DNA of 64,000 nt from Escherichia coli (GTDB lineage: Bacteria; Pseudomonadota; Gammaproteobacteria; Enterobacterales; Enterobacteriaceae), in assembly GCF_017348835.2 (NCBI RefSeq), contig NZ_CP071375.1. The stretch is one strand, 5' to 3'. Below, one piece after another: positions 1 to 20,188 of the stretch. The notes under the pieces are model-generated. The model worked only from the letters and a program-made list of their open reading frames with translations, did no database searches and was not told where the DNA came from. The position numbers and the translations under genes were made by a program. Position 1 is the stretch's first letter; each line of letters begins with the position of its first letter.

Positions 1-798
1 AAGGTCGTAGGGCCAGATAATAGGCTTTGCTCTAATTTTGGTACTAGTTTTGCTGCTCCAATTGTGGCAAGTTTAGCTGCGCATACATGGCAGAGAATAG
101 CCACTAATTCAGACTTTAATGTTTCACCATCATTGATTAAAGCATTATTAATTCATTCCGCTCAATTATCTTCTCCTGATTACTCGCCAAGTGAAAGACG
201 CTATTTGGGAGCGGGAATTCCTAATGAGGTTATTGAGACCTTATATGATAGTGATGATAGGTTTACTCTGATTTTCCAAACATTCTTGGTTCCTGGGGTG
301 AGGTGGAGAAAGGAAAACTATCCCATACCATCGGCACTTATTCAAAATGGAAAATTTAAAGGTGAGATTGTAATTACTGCTGCATATGCACCACCACTAA
401 ACCCTAATGCCGGCAGTGAATATGTTCGCGCGAACGTAGAGCTAAGTTTTGGCTTAATTGAGAATAATACTATAAAAGGAAAAGTGCCTATGGAAGGAGA
501 AAACGGTCAATCTGGATATGAGAGAGCTCAAATTGAGCATGGTGGAAAGTGGTCACCAGTAAAAATTCATCGCAAGGCATTTAATAAAGGAATTACTTCG
601 GGTAACTGGGCTCTTCAGGCTAAAACAACGTTGAGAGCGAATGAACCGGCCTTAATGGAGCCTTTACCTGTAACTATTGTAGTAACTTTAAAATCATTAG
701 ATGGAAACACACAAGTTTATGCTGATGGTGTAAGAGCTTTAAATGCTAATAACTGGGCTCACTATCCATTGCCTGCTCGTGTGCCAGTTTCCGTATAA
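1..798 (+). CDS. S8 subtilisin-like serine peptidase, C-terminal part (5' end lies outside the window)
   Basis: Frame 1 is open from nt 1 and reads KVVGPDNRLCSNFGTSFAAPIVASLAAH; GTSFAAP is the subtilase catalytic-Ser motif. About 235 aa of C-terminal extension follow. The ORF track lists only 64..798. Confidence 0.7.
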   Translation, partial: KVVGPDNRLCSNFGTSFAAPIVASLAAHTWQRIATNSDFNVSPSLIKALLIHSAQLSSPDYSPSERRYLGAGIPNEVIETLYDSDDRFTLIFQTFLVPGVRWRKENYPIPSALIQNGKFKGEIVITAAYAPPLNPNAGSEYVRANVELSFGLIENNTIKGKVPMEGENGQSGYERAQIEHGGKWSPVKIHRKAFNKGITSGNWALQAKTTLRANEPALMEPLPVTIVVTLKSLDGNTQVYADGVRALNANNWAHYPLPARVPVSV

Positions 799-812
799 CA
801 ACTATATAAATC

Positions 813-840
813 AAACCCGCTGTAGCGGGTTTGATTTATT
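813..840 (+). terminator. Rho-independent terminator after the peptidase gene
   Basis: GC hairpin aacccgc-tgta-gcgggtt followed by a T-rich tract. Confidence 0.5.
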
Positions 841-1214
841 TGTGGGTGTGTTTTATAAAAATACCGCCCATACACAACAAAATACAAAAAGTATTACAGA
901 TAAAAAAGGAGCGTAATGTGCAGATTTGTTGTTTTCCATATTTACTCACCTTAATATGATTAATCCTGATAAGATTGTTATTTCAGCGGTTTTCAAATGA
1001 GATATTATGCTAATCTGGCAGATTTGCATAACATTAAAATTTAATTTGTCTAACCGCTTTTAATAATAAGCGTTGTATTTTTATCCCAGCAATCTATTGT
1101 TTGATTTTTATTCCATCAATGTGGGGGCTTTACACTGGAACCAGTTTATTTATACTTTATACGTCAGCCTGAACAACTGGCATCTGCTGCACTGCGCCAT
1201 CGAGAGATTGAGAA

Positions 1215-1814
1215 ATGGCGCATATACAACTGGTCAAACAAACCTCTTCTGGTTTACTTCTCCCGGCGACGCCGGAGAGTTGCGATTTTCTGCATCAAAT
1301 CAAAATAGGTGAGTGGATACACGCAGACTTTAAGCGTGTGCGTAACTACGCATTCCACAAGCGTTTTTTCAAACTCCTGCAACTGGGATTCGATTACTGG
1401 ACTCCGGTCGGTGGGGCGATCACGCCTCGCGAACGAGAACTGCTGTCTGGTTTCGTGGATTACCTGTGCGAATCAGTTGGTCGGGAACACACATCAGCCC
1501 TGAGTGATGCCGCAGAGCAATACCTTAACACCGTTGCGACTCGTAGAACCCGGGATACGGCGTTGCTAAAGTCGTTTGAGGCTTTCCGCGAGTGGGTAAC
1601 CATTCAGGCCGGATTTTACACCGAGCATATTTATCCGGACGGTAGCCGTGGGCGTCGGGCAAAATCCATCGCTTTTGCGAATATGGACGAAGTCGAGTTT
1701 CAGCAGGTTTATAAATCTGTACTGAATGTGCTGTGGAACTGGATTCTGTTCCGTAAATTCTCCTCTCAGGAGGAAGTTGAAAATGTGGCCGCACAACTAC
1801 TGGAGTTTGCGTAA
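1215..1814 (+). CDS. Lambdoid prophage nin-region protein (DUF1367-like)
   Basis: 199-aa ORF directly upstream of and coupled to the YbcO-like and Q genes; the family assignment is from memory. Confidence 0.5.
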   Translation: MAHIQLVKQTSSGLLLPATPESCDFLHQIKIGEWIHADFKRVRNYAFHKRFFKLLQLGFDYWTPVGGAITPRERELLSGFVDYLCESVGREHTSALSDAAEQYLNTVATRRTRDTALLKSFEAFREWVTIQAGFYTEHIYPDGSRGRRAKSIAFANMDEVEFQQVYKSVLNVLWNWILFRKFSSQEEVENVAAQLLEFA

Positions 1815-2104
1815 TGGTGAATTTACGTAAAGCGGCTAAAGGCCAGATGTGCCAGATCAGAATCCCTGGCTACTGCAATCACAATCCCGAAACCTCTGTG
1901 CTGGCGCATTACAGGCTGGCGGGGACGTGCGGAACAGCGACAAAACCACACGATATGCAGGCGGCGATAGCCTGTAGCTCATGCCACGATCTAATCGACG
2001 GGCGGGTAAAAACCAGCGATTACACCAAAGAAGAATTGCGCCTGATGCATGCTGAAGGGGTTTTTCGCACACAAGAAATCTGGAGAAAGAAAGGTCATTT
2101 ATGA
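1814..2104 (+). CDS. YbcO-like prophage nuclease (DUF1364)
   Basis: 96 aa with the Cys-rich motif CQIRIPGYCNHNPETSVLAH...ACSSCHD, resembling DLP12 YbcO; the start overlaps the upstream stop. Confidence 0.65.
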   Translation: MVNLRKAAKGQMCQIRIPGYCNHNPETSVLAHYRLAGTCGTATKPHDMQAAIACSSCHDLIDGRVKTSDYTKEELRLMHAEGVFRTQEIWRKKGHL

Positions 2105-2643
2105 TTTACCCAACGAATACAGGAAAAAGCGGAGAACACCTTCGCCTCACCACGCTGGAAAGTGTCTGGATTCAGGGAAAACTACGTATGTGGGGGCGCT
2201 GGTCGTATATTGGCGGTGGCAGGTCAGGGAATATGTTCAATCAGTTGTTGGCATCCAAAAAACTGACGAAAACAGCCATTAATGAAGCCCTGCGCAGAAT
2301 GAAAAAAGCGGGAATAGAGAAAGCTGAGCTGGAAGCGTTTTTGCGAGAGATGATCAACGGCAAGCAAAAGAGCTGGCTGGCGCATTGTACTGATGCAGAG
2401 GCGTTATGTATTGATCGAGTCATAAGTGAGGTGCTGGCAGAGCATCCAGGATTGATTTGCATTCTCCGGCAACGCTATGAAGGGCGGGGGATGGCTAAGC
2501 GCAAAATGGCTGAATTGCTAAATGATGCACACCCAGAGTGGTGTTTTAGCACATGCGAAAAACGGATTGCTAATTGGTTAGCTGTTGCTGAGTATGCCCT
2601 ATATATTCCCATGCGTGAATCATTTGCTGAGAAAATGGCTTGA
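2101..2643 (+). CDS. Late-gene antiterminator Q-like protein
   Basis: 180-aa ORF overlapping the ybcO-like stop (ATGA), upstream of a terminator and of a phage-21-type lysis cassette; the call rests mainly on position. Confidence 0.5.
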   Translation: MIYPTNTGKSGEHLRLTTLESVWIQGKLRMWGRWSYIGGGRSGNMFNQLLASKKLTKTAINEALRRMKKAGIEKAELEAFLREMINGKQKSWLAHCTDAEALCIDRVISEVLAEHPGLICILRQRYEGRGMAKRKMAELLNDAHPEWCFSTCEKRIANWLAVAEYALYIPMRESFAEKMA

Positions 2644-2723
2644 TTTCTTACGTATAAACTGCTTCAATTTTGCTATGCTTCGCAAAGCTGTATCGCGAGG
2701 CGGATTGCAGACATGGACATCGT

Positions 2724-2750
2724 AAAAAAACCGCTTAATGCGGTTTTTTT
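2724..2750 (+). terminator. Rho-independent terminator downstream of Q (tR'-like)
   Basis: aaaaaaaccgc-ttaat-gcggttttttt: a short GC stem flanked by an A-run and a T-run. Confidence 0.6.
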
Positions 2751-3628
2751 ACGTCAGGAAAGCAGGGGAGAATGCTGCTAGTTGGGCAACTGGTCTTTCT
2801 GCTCCAAATTATAACAGAGACCAGTTATAGTTTCGGTGCTGTGTTTTTTTTACAATATTGTGATAACACATTGCTGGCGGGAGTTTTGATATTTCTTGGC
2901 AGGGGCTGATGATGCGTTATCCTGATGTCGTCAACTCATATAAAATGAGATGAGAGATCATTGCAGGGTGGTTTGTAATTCGCTGTTTAGCGGGACAATA
3001 TGTTGTCTGATACAAGACACCCGACGCCTCAGATTACTATAATAAAGACGAAGCATCCTTTGTATTGACCAACCGCCTGTTTAGGCGGTTCTTTCTGGGC
3101 TGGTTTATTGTATGCCAAATGATTATTAAAAAGGTTGTGTTAATAACAAAATCCGAAATAATATGCCTGCATATTTTTATCTTGCTTATATTCTGCATAT
3201 TGTGCATAGCAGGCTCATCCCTGCAATCAAAACTGTATGATGAGTATTTTTTGTTTTCCTTTTTTCCAGTCATCTGATGATGACCTGCTTCTTTTTAATC
3301 CGGATCGACATCAGTTTTTTAAGATAATTCCTGCGAGTTATATGCATAAATGCCACAAACTCCGCATTTTATGTGGTTGGGAGTTGCCGGGCGCGCAGTG
3401 AGTTTGCTAAGAAAACTCCTGCATGGTGAATCCCCCTGTGCGGTGGGGTGATACCATTAACCTTTTCTGTCGCCGACAGGTATCACGAACATTTTGTTCA
3501 CCGGGAGGCACCCGGCACCATGCACTTCAATAGATTCTCTCCACATTATGGATATTCTTTCAGAATATCCCACGCAGACTTTGTGTAAATGTTAACAAAT
3601 GTGCGTTTTATTTGATCTGATTCGCTGT

Positions 3629-3658
3629 TTGAGCGTCCAAAACAACGGTATATATAAT
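3629..3658 (+). promoter_or_regulatory. Sigma70-like promoter for the lipoprotein moron
   Basis: TTGAGC (3629-3634), 18-nt spacer, TATAAT (3653-3658), about 30 nt upstream of the 3688 start; SD gagga lies before the ATG. Confidence 0.4.
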
Positions 3659-3687
3659 CCTTTACTATATGACATATGTGAGGAAAA

Positions 3688-4116
3688 ATGGGTTTTCGTA
3701 GCGCATCAATTCTTACGTTGATTATTAGTGGGATTATTATCGGGTGCACTGATGCTGTATCGACAAATTATCATGACCGTACATCATATTACTCCGATAA
3801 AGCAATAGAGACACAGTATGTGAGTTCATCTGAACGTACTTCTGATGTTAGTGAGGATATCCGTCTGTATGCCCATCAAATCAAGAGCGCCATCGAAAAA
3901 CAGTTCGGGGATGCGAGTAAGTATTCAGGAAAAGAGTGTACACTGAGAATGCATATGGCCCCGAATGGCCTTCTACTGGAGGTTAAAAGAGAAAGTGGAG
4001 ACCTCGATTTATGTCGTGAAGCGATGAATGCGATAAAGAATGCTGATATACCTGCCCCCCCTTCGCCGGAAGTATATAAAGTATTTCAAAATGGGGTGCT
4101 GGATTTTAAACCCTGA
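3688..4116 (+). CDS. Outer-membrane lipoprotein with a TolA C-terminal domain III-like domain (moron gene 1)
   Basis: Signal peptide with lipobox IIGC followed by Thr at +2. The C-terminus YAHQIKSAIEKQFGDASKYSGKECTLRMHMAPNGLLLEVKRESGDLDLC...PAPPSPEVYKVFQNGVLDFKP parallels the TolA C-terminus (YAGQIKSAIESKF...GKTCTLRIKLAPDGMLLDIK...PKPPSQAVYEVFKNAPLDFKP, recalled from memory). Confidence 0.75.
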   Translation: MGFRSASILTLIISGIIIGCTDAVSTNYHDRTSYYSDKAIETQYVSSSERTSDVSEDIRLYAHQIKSAIEKQFGDASKYSGKECTLRMHMAPNGLLLEVKRESGDLDLCREAMNAIKNADIPAPPSPEVYKVFQNGVLDFKP

Positions 4117-4266
4117 TATTTATTGTTTTGTAATAAACGGTTTCGGCTTAGGTTTGTTCTGACACAGCTACGGCACTGAGCTAAATTTAGCGGATAGTCA
4201 GCTCTGAGCCAGTGGCGGACGTAACAACTACTATTGCTGAGATTTTAATGGATTGAGGAGCAAGAA

Positions 4267-4662
4267 GTGGGATTAAAGAAAATCGTTATGTTGACTTTTT
4301 GGGTCGGTTTTGTTGCGGGATGCACACCTTTACACCCTTCAGATTGCCACAAAACTACTGCTACAGGTAGTTGCAGTTCAGGACGCTGGGATGATCAGGA
4401 TGAATGGGGGGCGCAAGCGCGGGGAATCAGAGCTGCAATTAATGCCAAACTTGATGAGCCGCATAACTGGAAAGGGAAAAAATGCAGGTTGCATATGGAA
4501 TTCTCTCAGGATGGCACGGCGTTAAAAATATCTACCAGTAACGGTGATAAAGCCTATTGCGAAGCGATAAAGTCCGCAGCTCATAAAGCCAAATTTCCGG
4601 CCTTCAACAATCCGGAAGTCTACAGAGATTTTCAGAAATCTGGCTTTGACATGCGAGGTTAG
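4267..4662 (+). CDS. Second, divergent TolA domain III-like lipoprotein (moron gene 2)
   Basis: GTG start with SD gaggag; signal peptide MGLKKIVMLTFWVGFVAGC (lipobox VAGC, Thr at +2); C-terminal KGKKCRLHMEFSQDGTALKIS...FPAFNNPEVYRDFQ follows the same pattern as gene 1 and TolA-III. Confidence 0.65.
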   Translation: MGLKKIVMLTFWVGFVAGCTPLHPSDCHKTTATGSCSSGRWDDQDEWGAQARGIRAAINAKLDEPHNWKGKKCRLHMEFSQDGTALKISTSNGDKAYCEAIKSAAHKAKFPAFNNPEVYRDFQKSGFDMRG

Positions 4663-4787
4663 CTCTTCAATTACTATATCTCATTCATAGCAAACTGACA
4701 GATTTGATGATGTTCTATATACGAAACCTGTGATGTCAAGTCTGAGCTAATACAAATAAACATAATATCAGAGAAATACATTTTATT

Positions 4788-4811
4788 AGCTCGCTACGGC
4801 GAGCTTTTTAT
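4788..4811 (+). terminator. Rho-independent terminator closing the lipoprotein moron
   Basis: agctcgc-tacg-gcgagct followed by ttttta. Confidence 0.55.
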
Positions 4812-4913
4812 ATTGCATCGTCTCCAGCATATATATCAATTAAGGCTCTGATTGATGTGTCTGAAAGCCTACACATAATAACTATGCCATCCGTTCCGTG
4901 CGGAGGTGAGGCT

Positions 4914-5129
4914 ATGAAATCCATGGACAAAATTTCAACAGGCATTGCCTACGGCACCTCCGCAGGCAGTGCTGGCTACTGGTTTTTACAGTTGCTCGAT
5001 AGAGTAACTCCGTCACAGTGGGCTGCAATCGGTGTGCTGGGTAGTCTGGTATTTGGCCTGCTGACGTACCTGACAAACCTTTATTTCAAGATTAAAGAAG
5101 ATAAGCGCAAGGCTGCGAGAGGTGAATAA
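4914..5129 (+). CDS. Phage-21-type class II holin (pinholin S21-like) with a dual-start motif
   Basis: [26 protein letters not shown]... 71 aa from Met 4914; the MKSMDK arrangement matches the S21 antiholin/holin dual start; SD ggaggtgag. The ORF track extends upstream to 4857. Confidence 0.8.
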
Positions 5130-5626
5130 TGCCTCCATCATTACGAAAAGTCGTTGCTGCTGCTATTGGTGGCGGAGCAATTGCTATAGCATCAGTGTTA
5201 ATCACTGGCCCAAGTGGTAACGATGGTCTGGAAGGTGTCAGCTACATACCATACAAAGATATTGTTGGTGTATGGACTGTATGTCACGGGCATACAGGAA
5301 AAGACATCATGCTCGGTAAAACGTATACCAAAGCAGAATGCAAAACACTCTTGAATAAAGACCTTGCCACTGTCGCCAGACAAATTAACCCGTACATCAA
5401 AGTCGATATACCGGAAACAACGCGCGGCGCTCTTTACTCATTCGTTTACAACGTGGGTGCTGGCAATTTCAGAACATCGACGCTTCTTCGCAAAATAAAC
5501 CAGGGCGATATCAAAGGCGCATGTGATCAGCTACGTCGCTGGACATATGCTGGCGGTAAGCAATGGAAAGGTCTCATGACTCGTCGTGAGATTGAGCGTG
5601 AAATCTGTTTGTGGGGTCAGCAATGA
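5129..5626 (+). CDS. SAR endolysin (R21-like lysozyme)
   Basis: 165 aa with an N-terminal hydrophobic signal-anchor-release segment ([20 protein letters not shown]) followed by a lysozyme domain; start overlaps the holin stop (taATG). Confidence 0.8.
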
Positions 5627-6087
5627 ACAGAGTAACCGCGATTATCTCCGCTCTGGTTATCTGCATCATCGTCTGCCTGTCATGGGCTGTTAATCATTAC
5701 CGTGATAACGCCATTACCTACAAAGCCCAGCGCGACAAAAATGCCAGAGAACTGAAGCTGGCGAACTCGACAATTACTGACATGCAGGTGCGCCAGCGTG
5801 ATGTTGCTGCGCTCGATGCAAAATACACGAAGGAGTTAGCTGATGCGAAAGCTGAAAATGATGCTCTGCGTGATGATGTTGCCGCTGGTCGTCGTCGGTT
5901 GCACATCAAAGCAGTCTGTCAGTCAGTGCGTGAAGCCACCACCGCCTCCGGCGTGGATAATGCAGCCTCCCCCCGACTGGCAGACACCGCTGAACGGGAT
6001 TATTTCACCCTCCGGGAACGACTGGTAATGATGCAGGCCCAACTTGAAGGTGCTCAGCAATACATAACCGAGCAGTGTTTAAAGTAA
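5623..6087 (+). CDS. Rz i-spanin
   Basis: [47 protein letters not shown]... is close to lambda Rz; start overlaps the endolysin stop. Confidence 0.85.
5843..6028 (+). CDS. Rz1 o-spanin lipoprotein, embedded in the +1 frame of Rz
   Basis: [24 protein letters not shown]...[16 protein letters not shown]: lipobox plus Pro-rich region, fully nested inside Rz as in lambda. Confidence 0.85.
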
Positions 6088-6224
6088 AATCTTAACTACA
6101 ATATGATTCATTTTGATGATTGTTTCATAAGGAACAGTGAAGTAAGATCTAAGAGGAGTTAAATTTTATACAGTATAATCATAATATTGCAGCAAGGTGG
6201 TTATAATTGAAAGAATATTTAGAT

Positions 6225-7682
6225 ATGAATACATCTCATGTAAGAGTTGTTACTCATATGTGTGGGTTCCTGGTTTGGCTCTATAGTCTTTCAATGTTGC
6301 CACCAATGGTTGTAGCATTGTTTTATAAAGAAAAAAGCCTGTTCGTTTTCTTTATAACTTTCGTTATATTTTTTTGCATTGGTGGCGGAGCGTGGTATAC
6401 AACTAAGAAATCTGGCATTCAATTACGTACCCGTGATGGGTTTATTATAATTGTAATGTTTTGGATTTTGTTTTCTGTTATTAGTGCATTCCCTTTATGG
6501 ATTGACTCAGAACTTAATTTAACGTTCATTGATGCTCTGTTTGAAGGGGTTTCTGGAATAACAACAACAGGAGCAACTGTAATTGATGATGTTAGTTCAT
6601 TACCTCGGGCATATTTGTACTATCGGTCACAGTTAAATTTTATAGGTGGTTTAGGAGTTATTGTTCTGGCGGTTGCTGTATTGCCATTATTGGGTATTGG
6701 TGGTGCAAAGCTTTATCAGTCAGAAATGCCGGGGCCATTTAAGGATGACAAACTCACTCCCCGCCTGGCCGATACGTCACGGACACTGTGGATAACTTAT
6801 TCTTTATTAGGTATTGCTTGTATTGTCTGTTATAGACTTGCAGGAATGCCTTTGTTTGATGCTATTTGTCACGGGATTTCCACAGTTTCGCTTGGTGGTT
6901 TCTCAACTCATAGCGAGAGTATCGGATATTTTAATAACTATTTGGTTGAGCTGGTGGCTGGTTCTTTTTCCCTGCTATCGGCTTTCAACTTCACTCTTTG
7001 GTATATTGTTATTAGCAGGAAAACGATAAAACCTTTAATCAGAGATATTGAACTTCGTTTCTTTCTGTTAATAGCCTTAGGGGTGATCATTGTTACCTCT
7101 TTCCAGGTCTGGCATATAGGTATGTATGACTTGCATGGAAGTTTTATTCATTCGTTTTTTCTTGCCAGCTCCATGCTCACTGATAATGGTTTAGCTACGC
7201 AGGATTATGCAAGTTGGCCCACGCATACGATAGTGTTTTTGCTGTTGTCAAGTTTCTTTGGGGGATGTATAGGTTCAACTTGTGGTGGAATTAAGTCACT
7301 TCGATTTCTTATACTTTTCAAACAAAGCAAACACGAGATAAATCAGCTTTCTCATCCCAGAGCGTTGTTGAGTGTAAATGTAGGAGGGAAGATAGTTACA
7401 GATCGTGTAATGAGGTCTGTATGGAGTTTCTTTTTTCTTTATACTCTCTTCACGGTGTTTTTTATACTGGTGTTAAATGGTATGGGATATGATTTTCTTA
7501 CATCATTTGCAACAGTGGCTGCATGTATTAATAATATGGGATTAGGTTTTGGGGCTACTGCATCGTCATTCGGAGTGCTTAATGACATTGCAAAATGTTT
7601 AATGTGCATAGCTATGATTCTTGGTCGCCTTGAAATTTATCCTGTTATTATATTGTTTTCAGGTTTTTTTTGGCGCTCCTAA
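6225..7682 (+). CDS. trkG: Prophage-encoded K+ uptake protein TrkG (TrkH paralogue)
   Basis: 485 aa from MNTSHVRVVTHMCGFLVWLYSLSMLPP; AT-rich gene, same position after Rz/Rz1 as in K-12 Rac. Confidence 0.9.
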   Translation: MNTSHVRVVTHMCGFLVWLYSLSMLPPMVVALFYKEKSLFVFFITFVIFFCIGGGAWYTTKKSGIQLRTRDGFIIIVMFWILFSVISAFPLWIDSELNLTFIDALFEGVSGITTTGATVIDDVSSLPRAYLYYRSQLNFIGGLGVIVLAVAVLPLLGIGGAKLYQSEMPGPFKDDKLTPRLADTSRTLWITYSLLGIACIVCYRLAGMPLFDAICHGISTVSLGGFSTHSESIGYFNNYLVELVAGSFSLLSAFNFTLWYIVISRKTIKPLIRDIELRFFLLIALGVIIVTSFQVWHIGMYDLHGSFIHSFFLASSMLTDNGLATQDYASWPTHTIVFLLLSSFFGGCIGSTCGGIKSLRFLILFKQSKHEINQLSHPRALLSVNVGGKIVTDRVMRSVWSFFFLYTLFTVFFILVLNGMGYDFLTSFATVAACINNMGLGFGATASSFGVLNDIAKCLMCIAMILGRLEIYPVIILFSGFFWRS

Positions 7683-7819
7683 TATATGGCTGATTTATAA
7701 TTGTGAGTTTAATATTATGTTGACTCACTCATTGATCCAATACCTAACTTTACCAGCAACACCTCCGTCCCCAGTAGCACTGGCTGCTGGGGTGCGTTTT
7801 ATTCATAAAGCAAGGCTGT

Positions 7820-19300: not shown

Positions 19301-19915
19301 GTTGAGCGCCCGGGCGCGATGAGCATCAATTTCGGCCTGCGGCATGAGATCAAGAATAGTGTCATCGGCCAGCGGGACAATTTTATTGATTTCGTGGGAC
19401 GTACGGAAACCATCAAAGAAATGAATAAATGGCACGCGGCTTTTCAGCGTCGCGATGTGCGAAATGAGAGCAAAGTCTTGCGCTTCCTGGACGTTTGCCG
19501 CACACAACATCGCGCAACCCGTCTGGCGCACCGCCATGACGTCGGAATGATCGCCAAAAATAGAGAGTGCATGTGTGGCAACGGTACGTGCCGCTACATG
19601 CAGGACAAACGGTGTGAGTTCGCCTGCCAGTTTGTACAGCGTCGGGATCATCAGCAGCAAACCCTGCGATGACGTAAACGATGTTGAAAGGGCACCCGTC
19701 TGCAAAGCGCCATGCACGGTAGCGATAGCACCCGCTTCCGACTGCATTTCAACCACGCGTGGTGTGTCTCCCCAAACGTTCTTCAAGCCGTTTCCGGCCC
19801 AGGCATCAGCCTGTTCTGCCATCGTGGAACTGGGGGTAATAGGGTAGATGGCGATAACTTCACTGGTGCGAAACGCCACCGAAGCAACCGCGCCATTACC
19901 GTCAATAGTAATCAT
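16391..19915 (-). CDS. ydbK: Pyruvate:flavodoxin/ferredoxin oxidoreductase
   Basis: 1174 aa with 4Fe-4S ferredoxin Cys motifs (CTQCNHCVAACP, CTGCNLCVEVCP) and TPP-binding regions. Confidence 0.95.
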   Translation of the reverse strand: MITIDGNGAVASVAFRTSEVIAIYPITPSSTMAEQADAWAGNGLKNVWGDTPRVVEMQSEAGAIATVHGALQTGALSTSFTSSQGLLLMIPTLYKLAGELTPFVLHVAARTVATHALSIFGDHSDVMAVRQTGCAMLCAANVQEAQDFALISHIATLKSRVPFIHFFDGFRTSHEINKIVPLADDTILDLMPQAEIDAHRARALNPEHPVIRGTSANPDTYFQSREATNPWYNAVYDHVEQAMNDFAAATGRQYQPFEYYGHPQAERVIILMGSAIGTCEEVVDELLTRGEKVGVLKVRLYRPFSAKHLLQALPGSVRSVAVLDRTKEPGAQAEPLYLDVMTALAEAFNNGERETLPRVIGGRYGLSSKEFGPDCVLAVFAELNAAKPKARFTVGIYDDVTNLSLPLPENTLPNSAKLEALFYGLGSDGSVSATKNNIKIIGNSTPWYAQGYFVYDSKKAGGLTVSHLRVSEQPIRSAYLISQADFVGCHQLQFIDKYQMAERLKPGGIFLLNTPYSADEVWSRLPQEVQAVLNQKKARFYVINAAKIARECGLAARINTVMQMAFFHLTQILPGDSALAELQGAIAKSYSSKGQDLVERNWQALALARESVEEVPLQPVNPHSANRPPVVSDAAPDFVKTVTAAMLAGLGDALPVSALPPDGTWPMGTTRWEKRNIAEEIPIWKEELCTQCNHCVAACPHSAIRAKVVPPEAMENAPASLHSLDVKSRDMRGQKYVLQVAPEDCTGCNLCVEVCPAKDRQNPEIKAINMMSRLEHVEEEKINYDFFLNLPEIDRSKLERIDIRTSQLITPLFEYSGACSGCGETPYIKLLTQLYGDRMLIANATGCSSIYGGNLPSTPYTTDANGRGPAWANSLFEDNAEFGLGFRLTVDQHRVRVLRLLDQFADKIPAELLTALKSDATPEVRREQVTALRQQLNDVAEAHELLRDADALVEKSIWLIGGDGWAYDIGFGGLDHVLSLTENVNILVLDTQCYSNTGGQASKATPLGAVTKFGEHGKRKARKDLGVSMMMYGHVYVAQISLGAQLNQTVKAIQEAEAYPGPSLIIAYSPCEEHGYDLALSHDQMRQLTATGFWPLYRFDPRRADEGKLPLALDSRPPSEALEETLLHEQRFRRLNSQQPEVAEQLWKDAAADLQKRYDFLAQMAGKAEKSNTD

Positions 19916-20188
19916 ATGACACCCTTACATTGCGCAAATGAGGGGCGCACGAAATTGCTGCGCGCCCAGTAGTAATCCTTCAATTTTAGCAAATGGCTTT
20001 CTTCTGCATTTTCGCTTTTGTGTCCCCCACATCAGCGTAATGAATGTTTTGATCAAACAGAGGGCAAAAAAATAGCCATAAAAAAGTAAAAATGCGGGGC
20101 AACGCGCAGGACAGCTCTCGACGTCGCCCTCTGTGCTGCCTATTATTTATGGCGGTGTCGTTTGGCTTGAAGATCAGAGGAAGAAAAG

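What the first reader, a model, noticed from the sequence alone, without database searches (positions are those of the whole stretch)
1..840. Subtilisin-like S8 peptidase with a long C-terminal extension in the prophage nin region, truncated by the window edge
The first ORF runs off the 5' end and carries the subtilase catalytic-Ser motif GTSFAAP, then ~235 aa of uncharacterised C-terminal sequence, then a hairpin terminator. Intracellular subtilases are not normal lambdoid genes. S8 proteases do occur in phage-defence modules (for example paired with an ATPase, as in IetAS-type systems), and prophage early and nin regions are defence hotspots. The partner gene or genes would lie immediately upstream of this window.
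Basis: partly seen in the sequence, partly recalled or inferred. Interest (0 to 1): 0.6.

Follow-up and report, generated by a model that had tools for sequence, protein, structure and literature searches.

The report
Known IetAS anti-phage protease gene, truncated

Summary
Window 1-798 (+ strand, frame 1) encodes residues 490-754 of a 754-aa protein. RefSeq names it "S8 family anti-phage peptidase IteS" (WP_016232657.1), which is the IetS of the literature.

The window is 100% identical over 20 kb to E. coli PE164. In that genome an AAA+ ATPase gene, iteA/IetA, lies directly upstream. It points the same way and overlaps iteS by 26 nt.

Both full-length proteins pass the NCBIfam equivalog cut-offs and match the PADLOC IetS/IetA profiles (E 1.7e-300 and 8.9e-143). 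The catalytic residues D273/H303/S505 and the oxyanion N402 are invariant in 84 diverse homologues.

The "uncharacterised" C-terminal extension is about 210 aa, not 235. It is a conserved beta-sandwich domain placed like the C-domains of the subtilases KP-43 and Tk-SP.

The pair forms a 3.7-kb, 40%-GC cassette that ends in a strong hairpin at 806-839. It sits between the Ren-like gene and ninB of the Rac prophage, and other strains carry different cargo in that slot.

77 of 5,426 complete E. coli genomes carry this allele.

Both the observation and the interpretation are confirmed. The novelty rating is "already known". What remains open is the biochemical mechanism of IetAS in general.

The parts
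1..798 (+). 3' third of iteS/ietS: codons 490-754 plus the stop codon of a 754-aa S8 peptidase. The gene starts 1,466 bases upstream of window position 1 (L002 16534).
   Evidence: Translation. 100% identity to the annotated iteS of PE164 and SCU-104. PADLOC IetS PDLC02197 E 1.4e-118 for the fragment. NCBIfam IteS_antiphage 424 bits for the fragment and 1042.8 bits (cut-off 900) for the full protein.
1..165 (+). End of the subtilase catalytic domain (residues 490-544), including the catalytic Ser505 (codon 46-48) in GTSFAAP (40-60).
   Evidence: Pfam Peptidase_S8 covers residues 268-544. S505 is invariant in 84 homologues.
172..795 (+). C-terminal beta-sandwich (jelly-roll-like) accessory domain, residues about 547-754.
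806..839 (.). Hairpin terminator closing the iteAS operon (palindromic, so usable from either side).
   Evidence: -26 kcal/mol, z -6.0.
799..851 (.). Right-hand tail of the 3.7-kb iteAS cargo cassette. Homology to Rac prophages that carry other cargo resumes at window 852.
   Evidence: blastn of L002 against L003. Megablast hits H28-H40 start at query position 851/852. Alignment A3. GC is about 40% in the cassette against about 49-51% in the flanks.
1215..1814 (+). Right flank, not part of the system: NinB/Orf-like gene (DUF1367) that marks the start of the conserved nin block.
   Evidence: phrog_319 E 7e-70. RefSeq annotation.

Best explanation
Shown: the truncated ORF is the 3' part of ietS (RefSeq spelling iteS). 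This is the subtilisin-family protease gene of a complete two-gene IetAS system carried as a cargo cassette between the Ren-like gene and ninB of the Rac prophage. Its partner ietA, a single-domain classic-clade AAA+ ATPase, lies just outside the window and overlaps ietS by 26 nt, so the two genes form one operon that ends at the hairpin 806-839. IetS is cytoplasmic. It consists of an N-terminal region of about 265 aa, whose last part superposes on subtilase propeptides, then an S8 domain with an intact D273/H303/N402/S505 set, then a conserved beta-sandwich of about 210 aa.

Taken from the literature on homologues: IetS is toxic and IetA neutralises it. The pair protects against phages by abortive infection, it needs the protease activity, and it can be set off by a single phage protein.

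Inferred mechanism (about 0.5): in uninfected cells the IetA hexamer uses ATP to keep IetS inactive, for example by holding or remodelling a zymogen-like form. A phage protein disables or diverts IetA, or binds IetS. The freed protease then cleaves essential host or phage proteins, and the infected cell stops growing before phage are released.
Against: ietA and the first 489 codons of ietS are not in the window. They are inferred from public genomes identical to it. The cloned ECOR52 ietAS was among single systems described as giving only limited protection (bioRxiv 10.1101/2022.08.21.504612), and I did not check whether it is the same allele. The host Rac prophage is decayed in this strain (recE truncated, racR region missing, structural genes deleted), so expression is not assured, and no consensus sigma-70 promoter was found in the 193-bp spacer before ietA. 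The propeptide-like assignment rests only on aligned lengths in fold searches. Pfam Inhibitor_I9 is not detected in any of 84 members. The position that corresponds to pore loop 1 reads S-L-L-G with no aromatic residue, like the p97 D1 ring, so unfoldase activity is not certain. The published literature states that the anti-phage mechanism is unknown (PMC13069673).
Confidence: 0.85

Rival explanations
1. The pair serves the prophage mainly as an addiction (toxin-antitoxin) module. Loss of the Rac element, or of ietA expression, would free the stable protease and kill the cell, which stabilises the element. Any phage defence would be a side effect.
For: IetAS was first described as the stability/incompatibility TA system of plasmid pTiC58, and its relative SgiAT stabilises the island SGI1 (PMC4010927, PMC5006074, PMC13069673). 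Here it sits in a decayed prophage that has nevertheless been retained. The allele is at least 99% identical in 77 genomes, always single-copy and chromosomal.
Against: The two roles are not exclusive. Homologues have been shown to protect against phages (as reported in bioRxiv 10.1101/2022.08.27.505566 and PMC13069673). Other strains carry unrelated cargo in the same slot, for example a DUF262 protein with a TPR protein and Hok in strain S3. That pattern is what is seen at prophage defence hotspots. Rac is also retained in most E. coli without this cassette.
Confidence: 0.25
2. IetA and IetS form an ATP-dependent protease machine of the PAN/proteasome or FtsH kind. The ATPase would unfold selected phage or host proteins and hand them to the protease, rather than restraining it.
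For: IetA's closest solved relatives are substrate-threading AAA+ unfoldases: p97/Cdc48, PAN, FtsH and 26S Rpt subunits. The genes are translationally coupled, which suggests a fixed stoichiometry.
Against: Subtilases are open, monomeric endopeptidases and do not form a degradation chamber. The genetics in homologues show that IetS alone is toxic and that IetA is needed to tolerate it (PMC5006074, PMC13069673). The position of pore loop 1 has no aromatic residue.
Confidence: 0.12
3. It is an ordinary secreted or housekeeping subtilase that happens to lie in a prophage, with no partner and no role in defence.
For: Only the general S8 similarity supports this.
Against: A co-oriented, overlapping AAA+ partner is present. 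Family-specific equivalog profiles are passed. There is no signal-peptide-like hydrophobic segment: the highest Kyte-Doolittle mean over 12 residues in the first 60 residues is 1.3, and over 19 residues in the whole protein is 1.5, inside the catalytic core.
Confidence: 0.02

Closest known systems
IetAS (DefenseFinder 'Gao_Iet'; NCBIfam IteS_antiphage NF042956 and IteA_antiphage NF042959; PADLOC IetS PDLC02197 / IetA PDLC02196)
   Same: Same two-gene architecture, order (ATPase then protease), overlap, protein lengths and catalytic motifs. Curated equivalog cut-offs are passed. RefSeq already annotates the genes under this name in identical genomes.
   Different: Nothing of substance. Only the last 265 codons lie in the window. 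The RefSeq/NCBIfam spelling 'Ite' differs from the literature's 'Iet'.
IetA/IetS of Agrobacterium plasmid pTiC58 and SgiA/SgiT (S026/S025) of Salmonella Genomic Island 1: toxin-antitoxin stabilisation modules
   Same: AAA+ ATPase antitoxin plus subtilisin-like toxin on a mobile element.
   Different: These are distant in sequence. An Agrobacterium plasmid S8 peptidase matches at about 24% identity, and the E. coli protein matches best one PADLOC IetS sub-profile (PDLC02197), with eight other IetS/subtilase profiles matched more weakly. Here the carrier is a lambdoid prophage, not a plasmid or island.
Subtilases with a C-terminal beta-barrel/jelly-roll domain: KP-43 (1wmd) and Tk-SP (3afg)
ietHAS (Liu-DS4), an IetAS variant with an extra SNF2 helicase
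   Same: Same IetA/IetS core. Protease activity is required for defence.
   Different: There is no helicase gene here. The gene upstream of ietA is the prophage's Ren-like DUF977 gene.

Membership tests
IetAS defence system | S8 peptidase that matches the IetS family profile over its full length | tested here: met
   NCBIfam NF042956 equivalog 1042.8 bits against a cut-off of 900, covering residues 15-752. PADLOC PDLC02197 E 1.7e-300, covering residues 12-753. The window fragment alone gives 424 bits, below the cut-off only because it is truncated.
IetAS defence system | Adjacent, co-oriented AAA+ ATPase that matches the IetA profile | tested here: met
   In PE164 (identical to the window over 20 kb) and SCU-104, iteA lies at L002 15405-16559 and overlaps iteS by 26 nt. 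NF042959 gives 526.6 bits against a cut-off of 510, and PDLC02196 gives E 8.9e-143. It lies outside the window.
IetAS defence system | Intact subtilase catalytic triad and oxyanion residue | tested here: met
   D273, H303, S505 and N402 are present and invariant in 84 homologues.
IetAS defence system | Intact nucleotide-binding motifs in the ATPase | tested here: met
   Walker A GKPGTGKT, Walker B LFLDEFD and the DPAIWRRF arginines align to p97 D1/D2.
IetAS defence system | Cytoplasmic protease (no secretion signal) | tested here: met
   A hydropathy scan finds no hydrophobic N-terminal segment. The N-terminal residues from about 16 onward are modelled as part of a folded domain. No dedicated signal-peptide predictor was available.
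IetAS defence system | Protection against phage that depends on the protease, and toxicity of IetS relieved by IetA | not testable with these tools
   Known only for homologues (PMC13069673, PMC5006074, bioRxiv 10.1101/2022.08.27.505566).
Prophage cargo (moron) hotspot at the ren/nin junction | Conserved flanks with different, compositionally foreign cargo in different strains | tested here: met
   The flanks (DUF977 on the left, DUF1367 on the right) are shared. The cargo is iteAS here, DUF262 + TPR + Hok in strain S3, and four hypothetical genes + ISApl1 in 30COLEC. Homology breaks at L002 15174 and resumes at window 852. GC is 40% against 49-51%.
Secreted subtilases (subtilisin, KP-43, Tk-SP) | N-terminal signal peptide and stand-alone gene | tested here: not met
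   No signal-like segment. An obligate ATPase partner gene is present.
Subtilase Inhibitor_I9 propeptide | Sequence match to Pfam PF05922 in the region before the catalytic domain | tested here: not met
   No member of the 84-sequence alignment matches it. The only support is fold-level: longer alignments to pro-forms and a beta-alpha-beta-beta-alpha-beta string at residues 166-237.

The most novel reading that the evidence does not exclude
IetS may be a permanently tethered zymogen. A propeptide-like domain (about residues 166-240), which is the most variable part of the family, and a C-terminal beta-sandwich that is nearly as conserved as the catalytic core would act as the switch. The IetA ring would grip one of them to hold the protease off, and a phage protein would compete for that grip. 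If so, the conserved surface of the C-domain encoded in this window (G559, G561, T615, R701, and the K672/W673/P675/K677 motif) would be the IetA- or trigger-binding site. That would give the first mechanistic handle on a defence system whose mode of action is still unknown.
Probability: 0.25. Interest if true: 0.5.

Novelty: already known. Interest (0 to 1): 0.12.

Why it matters
For this locus, very little. It is a correctly recognised copy of a catalogued defence system that RefSeq already names, and it is present in about 1.4% of complete E. coli genomes and in an isolated Rac-like phage. It does show that a reader working from sequence alone can infer a defence system from one catalytic motif plus context. 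It also documents the slot between the Ren-like gene and ninB of Rac as an exchangeable cargo site. The broader open question is how an AAA+ ATPase controls a subtilase and what the protease cuts. That question is not made more testable by this window than by any other IetAS locus, although the domain analysis here gives concrete residues to mutate.

Tried and rejected
1. A possible direct repeat at the cassette ends: TTGTGGGAGTGTT just before the ietA start codon and TTGTGGGTGTGTT at window 843-855. Other cargoes in the same slot do not share it, and it does not coincide with the left homology break, so I treat it as chance.

2. A sigma-70 consensus promoter in the 193-bp spacer upstream of ietA. 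The simple scan found none. Whether the operon has its own promoter or is read through from the prophage early transcript is undetermined.

3. A sequence-level relative of the C-terminal domain in the PDB. There was none (best E 0.3, an RNA ligase, meaningless).

4. Pfam domains other than S8 in 84 family members. There were none, so the N- and C-terminal regions have no Pfam family.

5. The original report of anti-phage activity (Gao et al. 2020, Science) could not be read. The id I tried (PMC7985843, recalled from memory) returned no held paper, so its phage range and source strain are not cited.

6. Rfam scan of window 1-6000. Nothing overlaps the finding. The one hit lies elsewhere (STnc100).

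7. L004 was never written to the script machine's /data folder. The cassette boundaries were therefore computed against L003 only and checked for L004 by alignment A3.

Full report
**Observation.** Frame 1 of window 1-798 is open from the first base and ends at TAA 796-798.
- The 265 encoded residues begin KVVGPDNRLCSNFGTSFAAP. The subtilase Ser motif is therefore at window 40-60.
- A perfect 15-bp stem with a 4-nt loop follows at 806-839. Its G+C core is followed by a T-rich run.
- As RNA the hairpin folds at -26 kcal/mol, z = -6.0, and no shuffle out of 200 folds as well.
The one correction is that the S8 domain itself continues to residue 544 of the full protein, so the extension is about 210 aa, not about 235.

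**Identity.**
- Megablast of window 1-1300 against 5,426 complete E. coli genomes found 76 genomes holding at least 80% of it. All listed hits are annotated [quoted passage not shown].
- Window 1-20000 is 100% identical to E. coli PE164 (NZ_CP114128.1, pig isolate). Window 1-14000 has 0 mismatches against L002 18001-32000. PE164 is the source or is indistinguishable from it.
- In PE164, and also in SCU-104, the gene is 2,265 nt long and encodes 754 aa (WP_016232657.1). The window holds residues 490-754.
- Immediately upstream and in the same orientation lies iteA (384 aa, WP_000385105.1, "anti-phage ATPase IteA"). Its last 26 nt overlap the iteS start.

**Family tests.**
- PADLOC: the window fragment matches IetS PDLC02197 at E 1.4e-118, the full protein at E 1.7e-300, and the partner matches IetA PDLC02196 at E 8.9e-143.
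- NCBIfam: IteS_antiphage equivalog scores 1042.8 bits (cut-off 900). IteA_antiphage scores 526.6 bits (cut-off 510).
- Pfam sees only Peptidase_S8, at residues 268-544.
- The catalytic residues are D273 (VFDTG), H303 (HGT), N402 (AAGN) and S505 (GTSFAAP).
- A HMMER search of 1.84 billion cluster representatives gave 1,843 hits at E<=1e-3 and 327 at E<=1e-30. Most are 740-780 aa long and match in a single stretch across the whole query.
- In an alignment of 84 full-length homologues (25-48% identity), D273, H303, N402 and S505 are invariant. So are G559, G561, T615 and R701 in the C-terminal part, and K87 in an N-terminal A-x-A-K-S-H-R-P motif.
- The C-terminal region is nearly as conserved as the catalytic domain: median identity to the query is 31% against 37%, with 18 positions conserved at 90% or more. 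Residues 166-265 are the most variable part, at 16%.
- The "long C-terminal extension" is therefore a defining, constrained domain of the family and not a peculiarity of this gene.

**Structure.**
- AlphaFold2 with the 84-sequence alignment gave a confident model (pLDDT 93, pTM 0.94).
- The top Foldseek hits in the PDB are ProN-Tk-SP (3afg, E 1.5e-23, 614 columns), KP-43 (1wmd), SubHal, unprocessed pro-subtilisin E and PCSK9.
- I conclude that IetS has the layout propeptide-like region, then S8 domain, then C-terminal beta-sandwich, as in KP-43 and Tk-SP, preceded by a further family-specific N-terminal domain.
- The propeptide assignment is an inference from aligned lengths and from the beta-alpha-beta-beta-alpha-beta string at residues 166-237. 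No member matches Pfam Inhibitor_I9.
- There is no signal-peptide-like segment.

**The partner.** IetA aligns to both AAA domains of p97/VCP (E 1e-53) and, by NCBIfam, to PAN, Cdc48 and FtsH.
- It has Walker A GKPGTGKT (131-138), Walker B LFLDEFD (187-193) and the second-region arginines in DPAIWRRF.
- The position of pore loop 1 reads S-L-L-G with no aromatic residue. This resembles the p97 D1 ring more than the D2 ring.

**Genomic setting.** The element is the Rac prophage. It is integrated next to ttcA and carries intR, xisR, recT, a truncated recE, ydaU/V, trkG and the lysis genes. In this strain it is heavily decayed.
- PHROGs identify the left neighbour (DUF977) as a Ren-like exclusion protein.
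- The right neighbours are NinB/Orf (DUF1367), an HNH endonuclease-family gene (DUF1364, phrog_131) and an antiterminator Q-like protein.
- Homology to Rac prophages with other cargo breaks at L002 15174 and resumes at window 852. This delimits a cassette of about 3.7 kb with 40% GC inside flanks of 49-51%.
- The same slot holds a DUF262 protein, a TPR protein and Hok in strain S3. In strain 30COLEC it holds four hypothetical genes with an ISApl1.
- The iteS allele occurs at 99% identity or more, single-copy and chromosomal, in 77 of 5,426 complete genomes. It is also found at the same slot in the Rac-like phage vB_EcoS-683R6, at 99.1% aa identity.

**What is known.**
- IetS/IetA were described as a toxin (subtilisin-like protease) and antitoxin (AAA-ATPase) pair of plasmid pTiC58 (as cited in PMC4010927 and PMC13069673).
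- SgiAT of SGI1 is a homologue with demonstrated toxin-antitoxin behaviour (PMC5006074).
- Anti-phage activity was reported by Gao et al. 2020 (as cited in those papers; I could not read the original).
- The B. cereus system acts by abortive infection and is triggered by expressing SPbeta yosG (bioRxiv 10.1101/2022.08.27.505566).
- E. coli ietAS (ECOR52) was cloned and tested alone and with Zorya II or Kiwa. ietAS in E. coli is noted as prophage-borne (bioRxiv 10.1101/2022.08.21.504612).
- A 2026 paper states that the anti-phage mechanism remains unknown, that protease activity is required, and that ietA mutants could not be constructed (PMC13069673).

**Mechanism.**
- Shown here: a complete, intact, translationally coupled ATPase-protease operon with all catalytic motifs. 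The protease is cytoplasmic and has pro-form-like architecture.
- Taken from homologues: the toxin/antitoxin logic, abortive infection, and triggering by a single phage protein.
- Inferred (about 0.5): the IetA ring uses ATP to keep IetS inactive. A phage protein relieves this restraint. The protease then cleaves essential proteins and aborts the infection.
- Rivals:
  - A role mainly in prophage addiction (0.25, not exclusive of defence).
  - An ATP-dependent protease machine in which IetA feeds substrates to IetS (0.12).
  - An ordinary secreted subtilase (0.02, refuted by the upstream sequence).

**Verdict.** This is an already known, already annotated system, so interest is low. The only residual value is the domain-level description of IetS and the list of conserved C-domain residues that could be mutated.

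Noticed in passing
window 3391-3577 (+): Rfam match to the gammaproteobacterial sRNA STnc100 (RF02076). It scores 86.6 bits against a gathering score of 47 and covers the full model. It lies in the low-GC gap between the Q-like gene and the first TolA-domain gene of the prophage.
   Followed up: no
window 3688-4116 (+) and 4267-4662 (+): Two paralogous small prophage genes, both phrog_5772, that RefSeq annotates as TolA C-terminal-domain proteins. Both have lipoprotein-like N-termini (…IIGC, …VAGC). They might interfere with TolA-dependent entry of colicins or filamentous phages. In PE164 the first one is annotated as a partial pseudogene.
   Followed up: no
window 7820-9751 (+): A 643-aa ORF begins as the ParB/Srx-like YnaK N-terminus and continues as a phage tail-fibre C-terminal part. 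It looks like an in-frame fusion left by deletion of the Rac packaging and structural genes, because SCU-104 still has terminase genes there. RefSeq annotates it as two pseudogene fragments.
   Followed up: partly
L002 8435-12460 (upstream of the window, PE164): In this strain the Rac immunity region (racR, ydaS/T, sieB, kilR) is absent, recE is truncated, and an IS3-family element sits next to ralR. The prophage is therefore a remnant, and how iteAS is transcribed is unclear (one search compared).
   Followed up: no
L004 4910-8899 and L003 3527-7601 (same slot in other strains): The slot between the Ren-like gene and ninB holds alternative cargo. Strain S3 has a DUF262 protein (1,683 nt), a TPR protein and a Hok/Gef toxin. 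Strain 30COLEC has four hypothetical genes interrupted by ISApl1. These could be other defence candidates and were not analysed.
   Followed up: no
IetS residues 84-91 (outside the window; L002 about 16783-16806): A nearly invariant A-x-A-K-S-H-R-P motif (K87 invariant) lies in the N-terminal domain of the family. It has no assigned function and could be a processing or partner-contact site.
   Followed up: no
database naming: NCBIfam and RefSeq spell the genes iteA/iteS, whereas the literature, PADLOC and DefenseFinder use ietA/ietS. A literature search for the RefSeq spelling returns nothing.
   Followed up: yes
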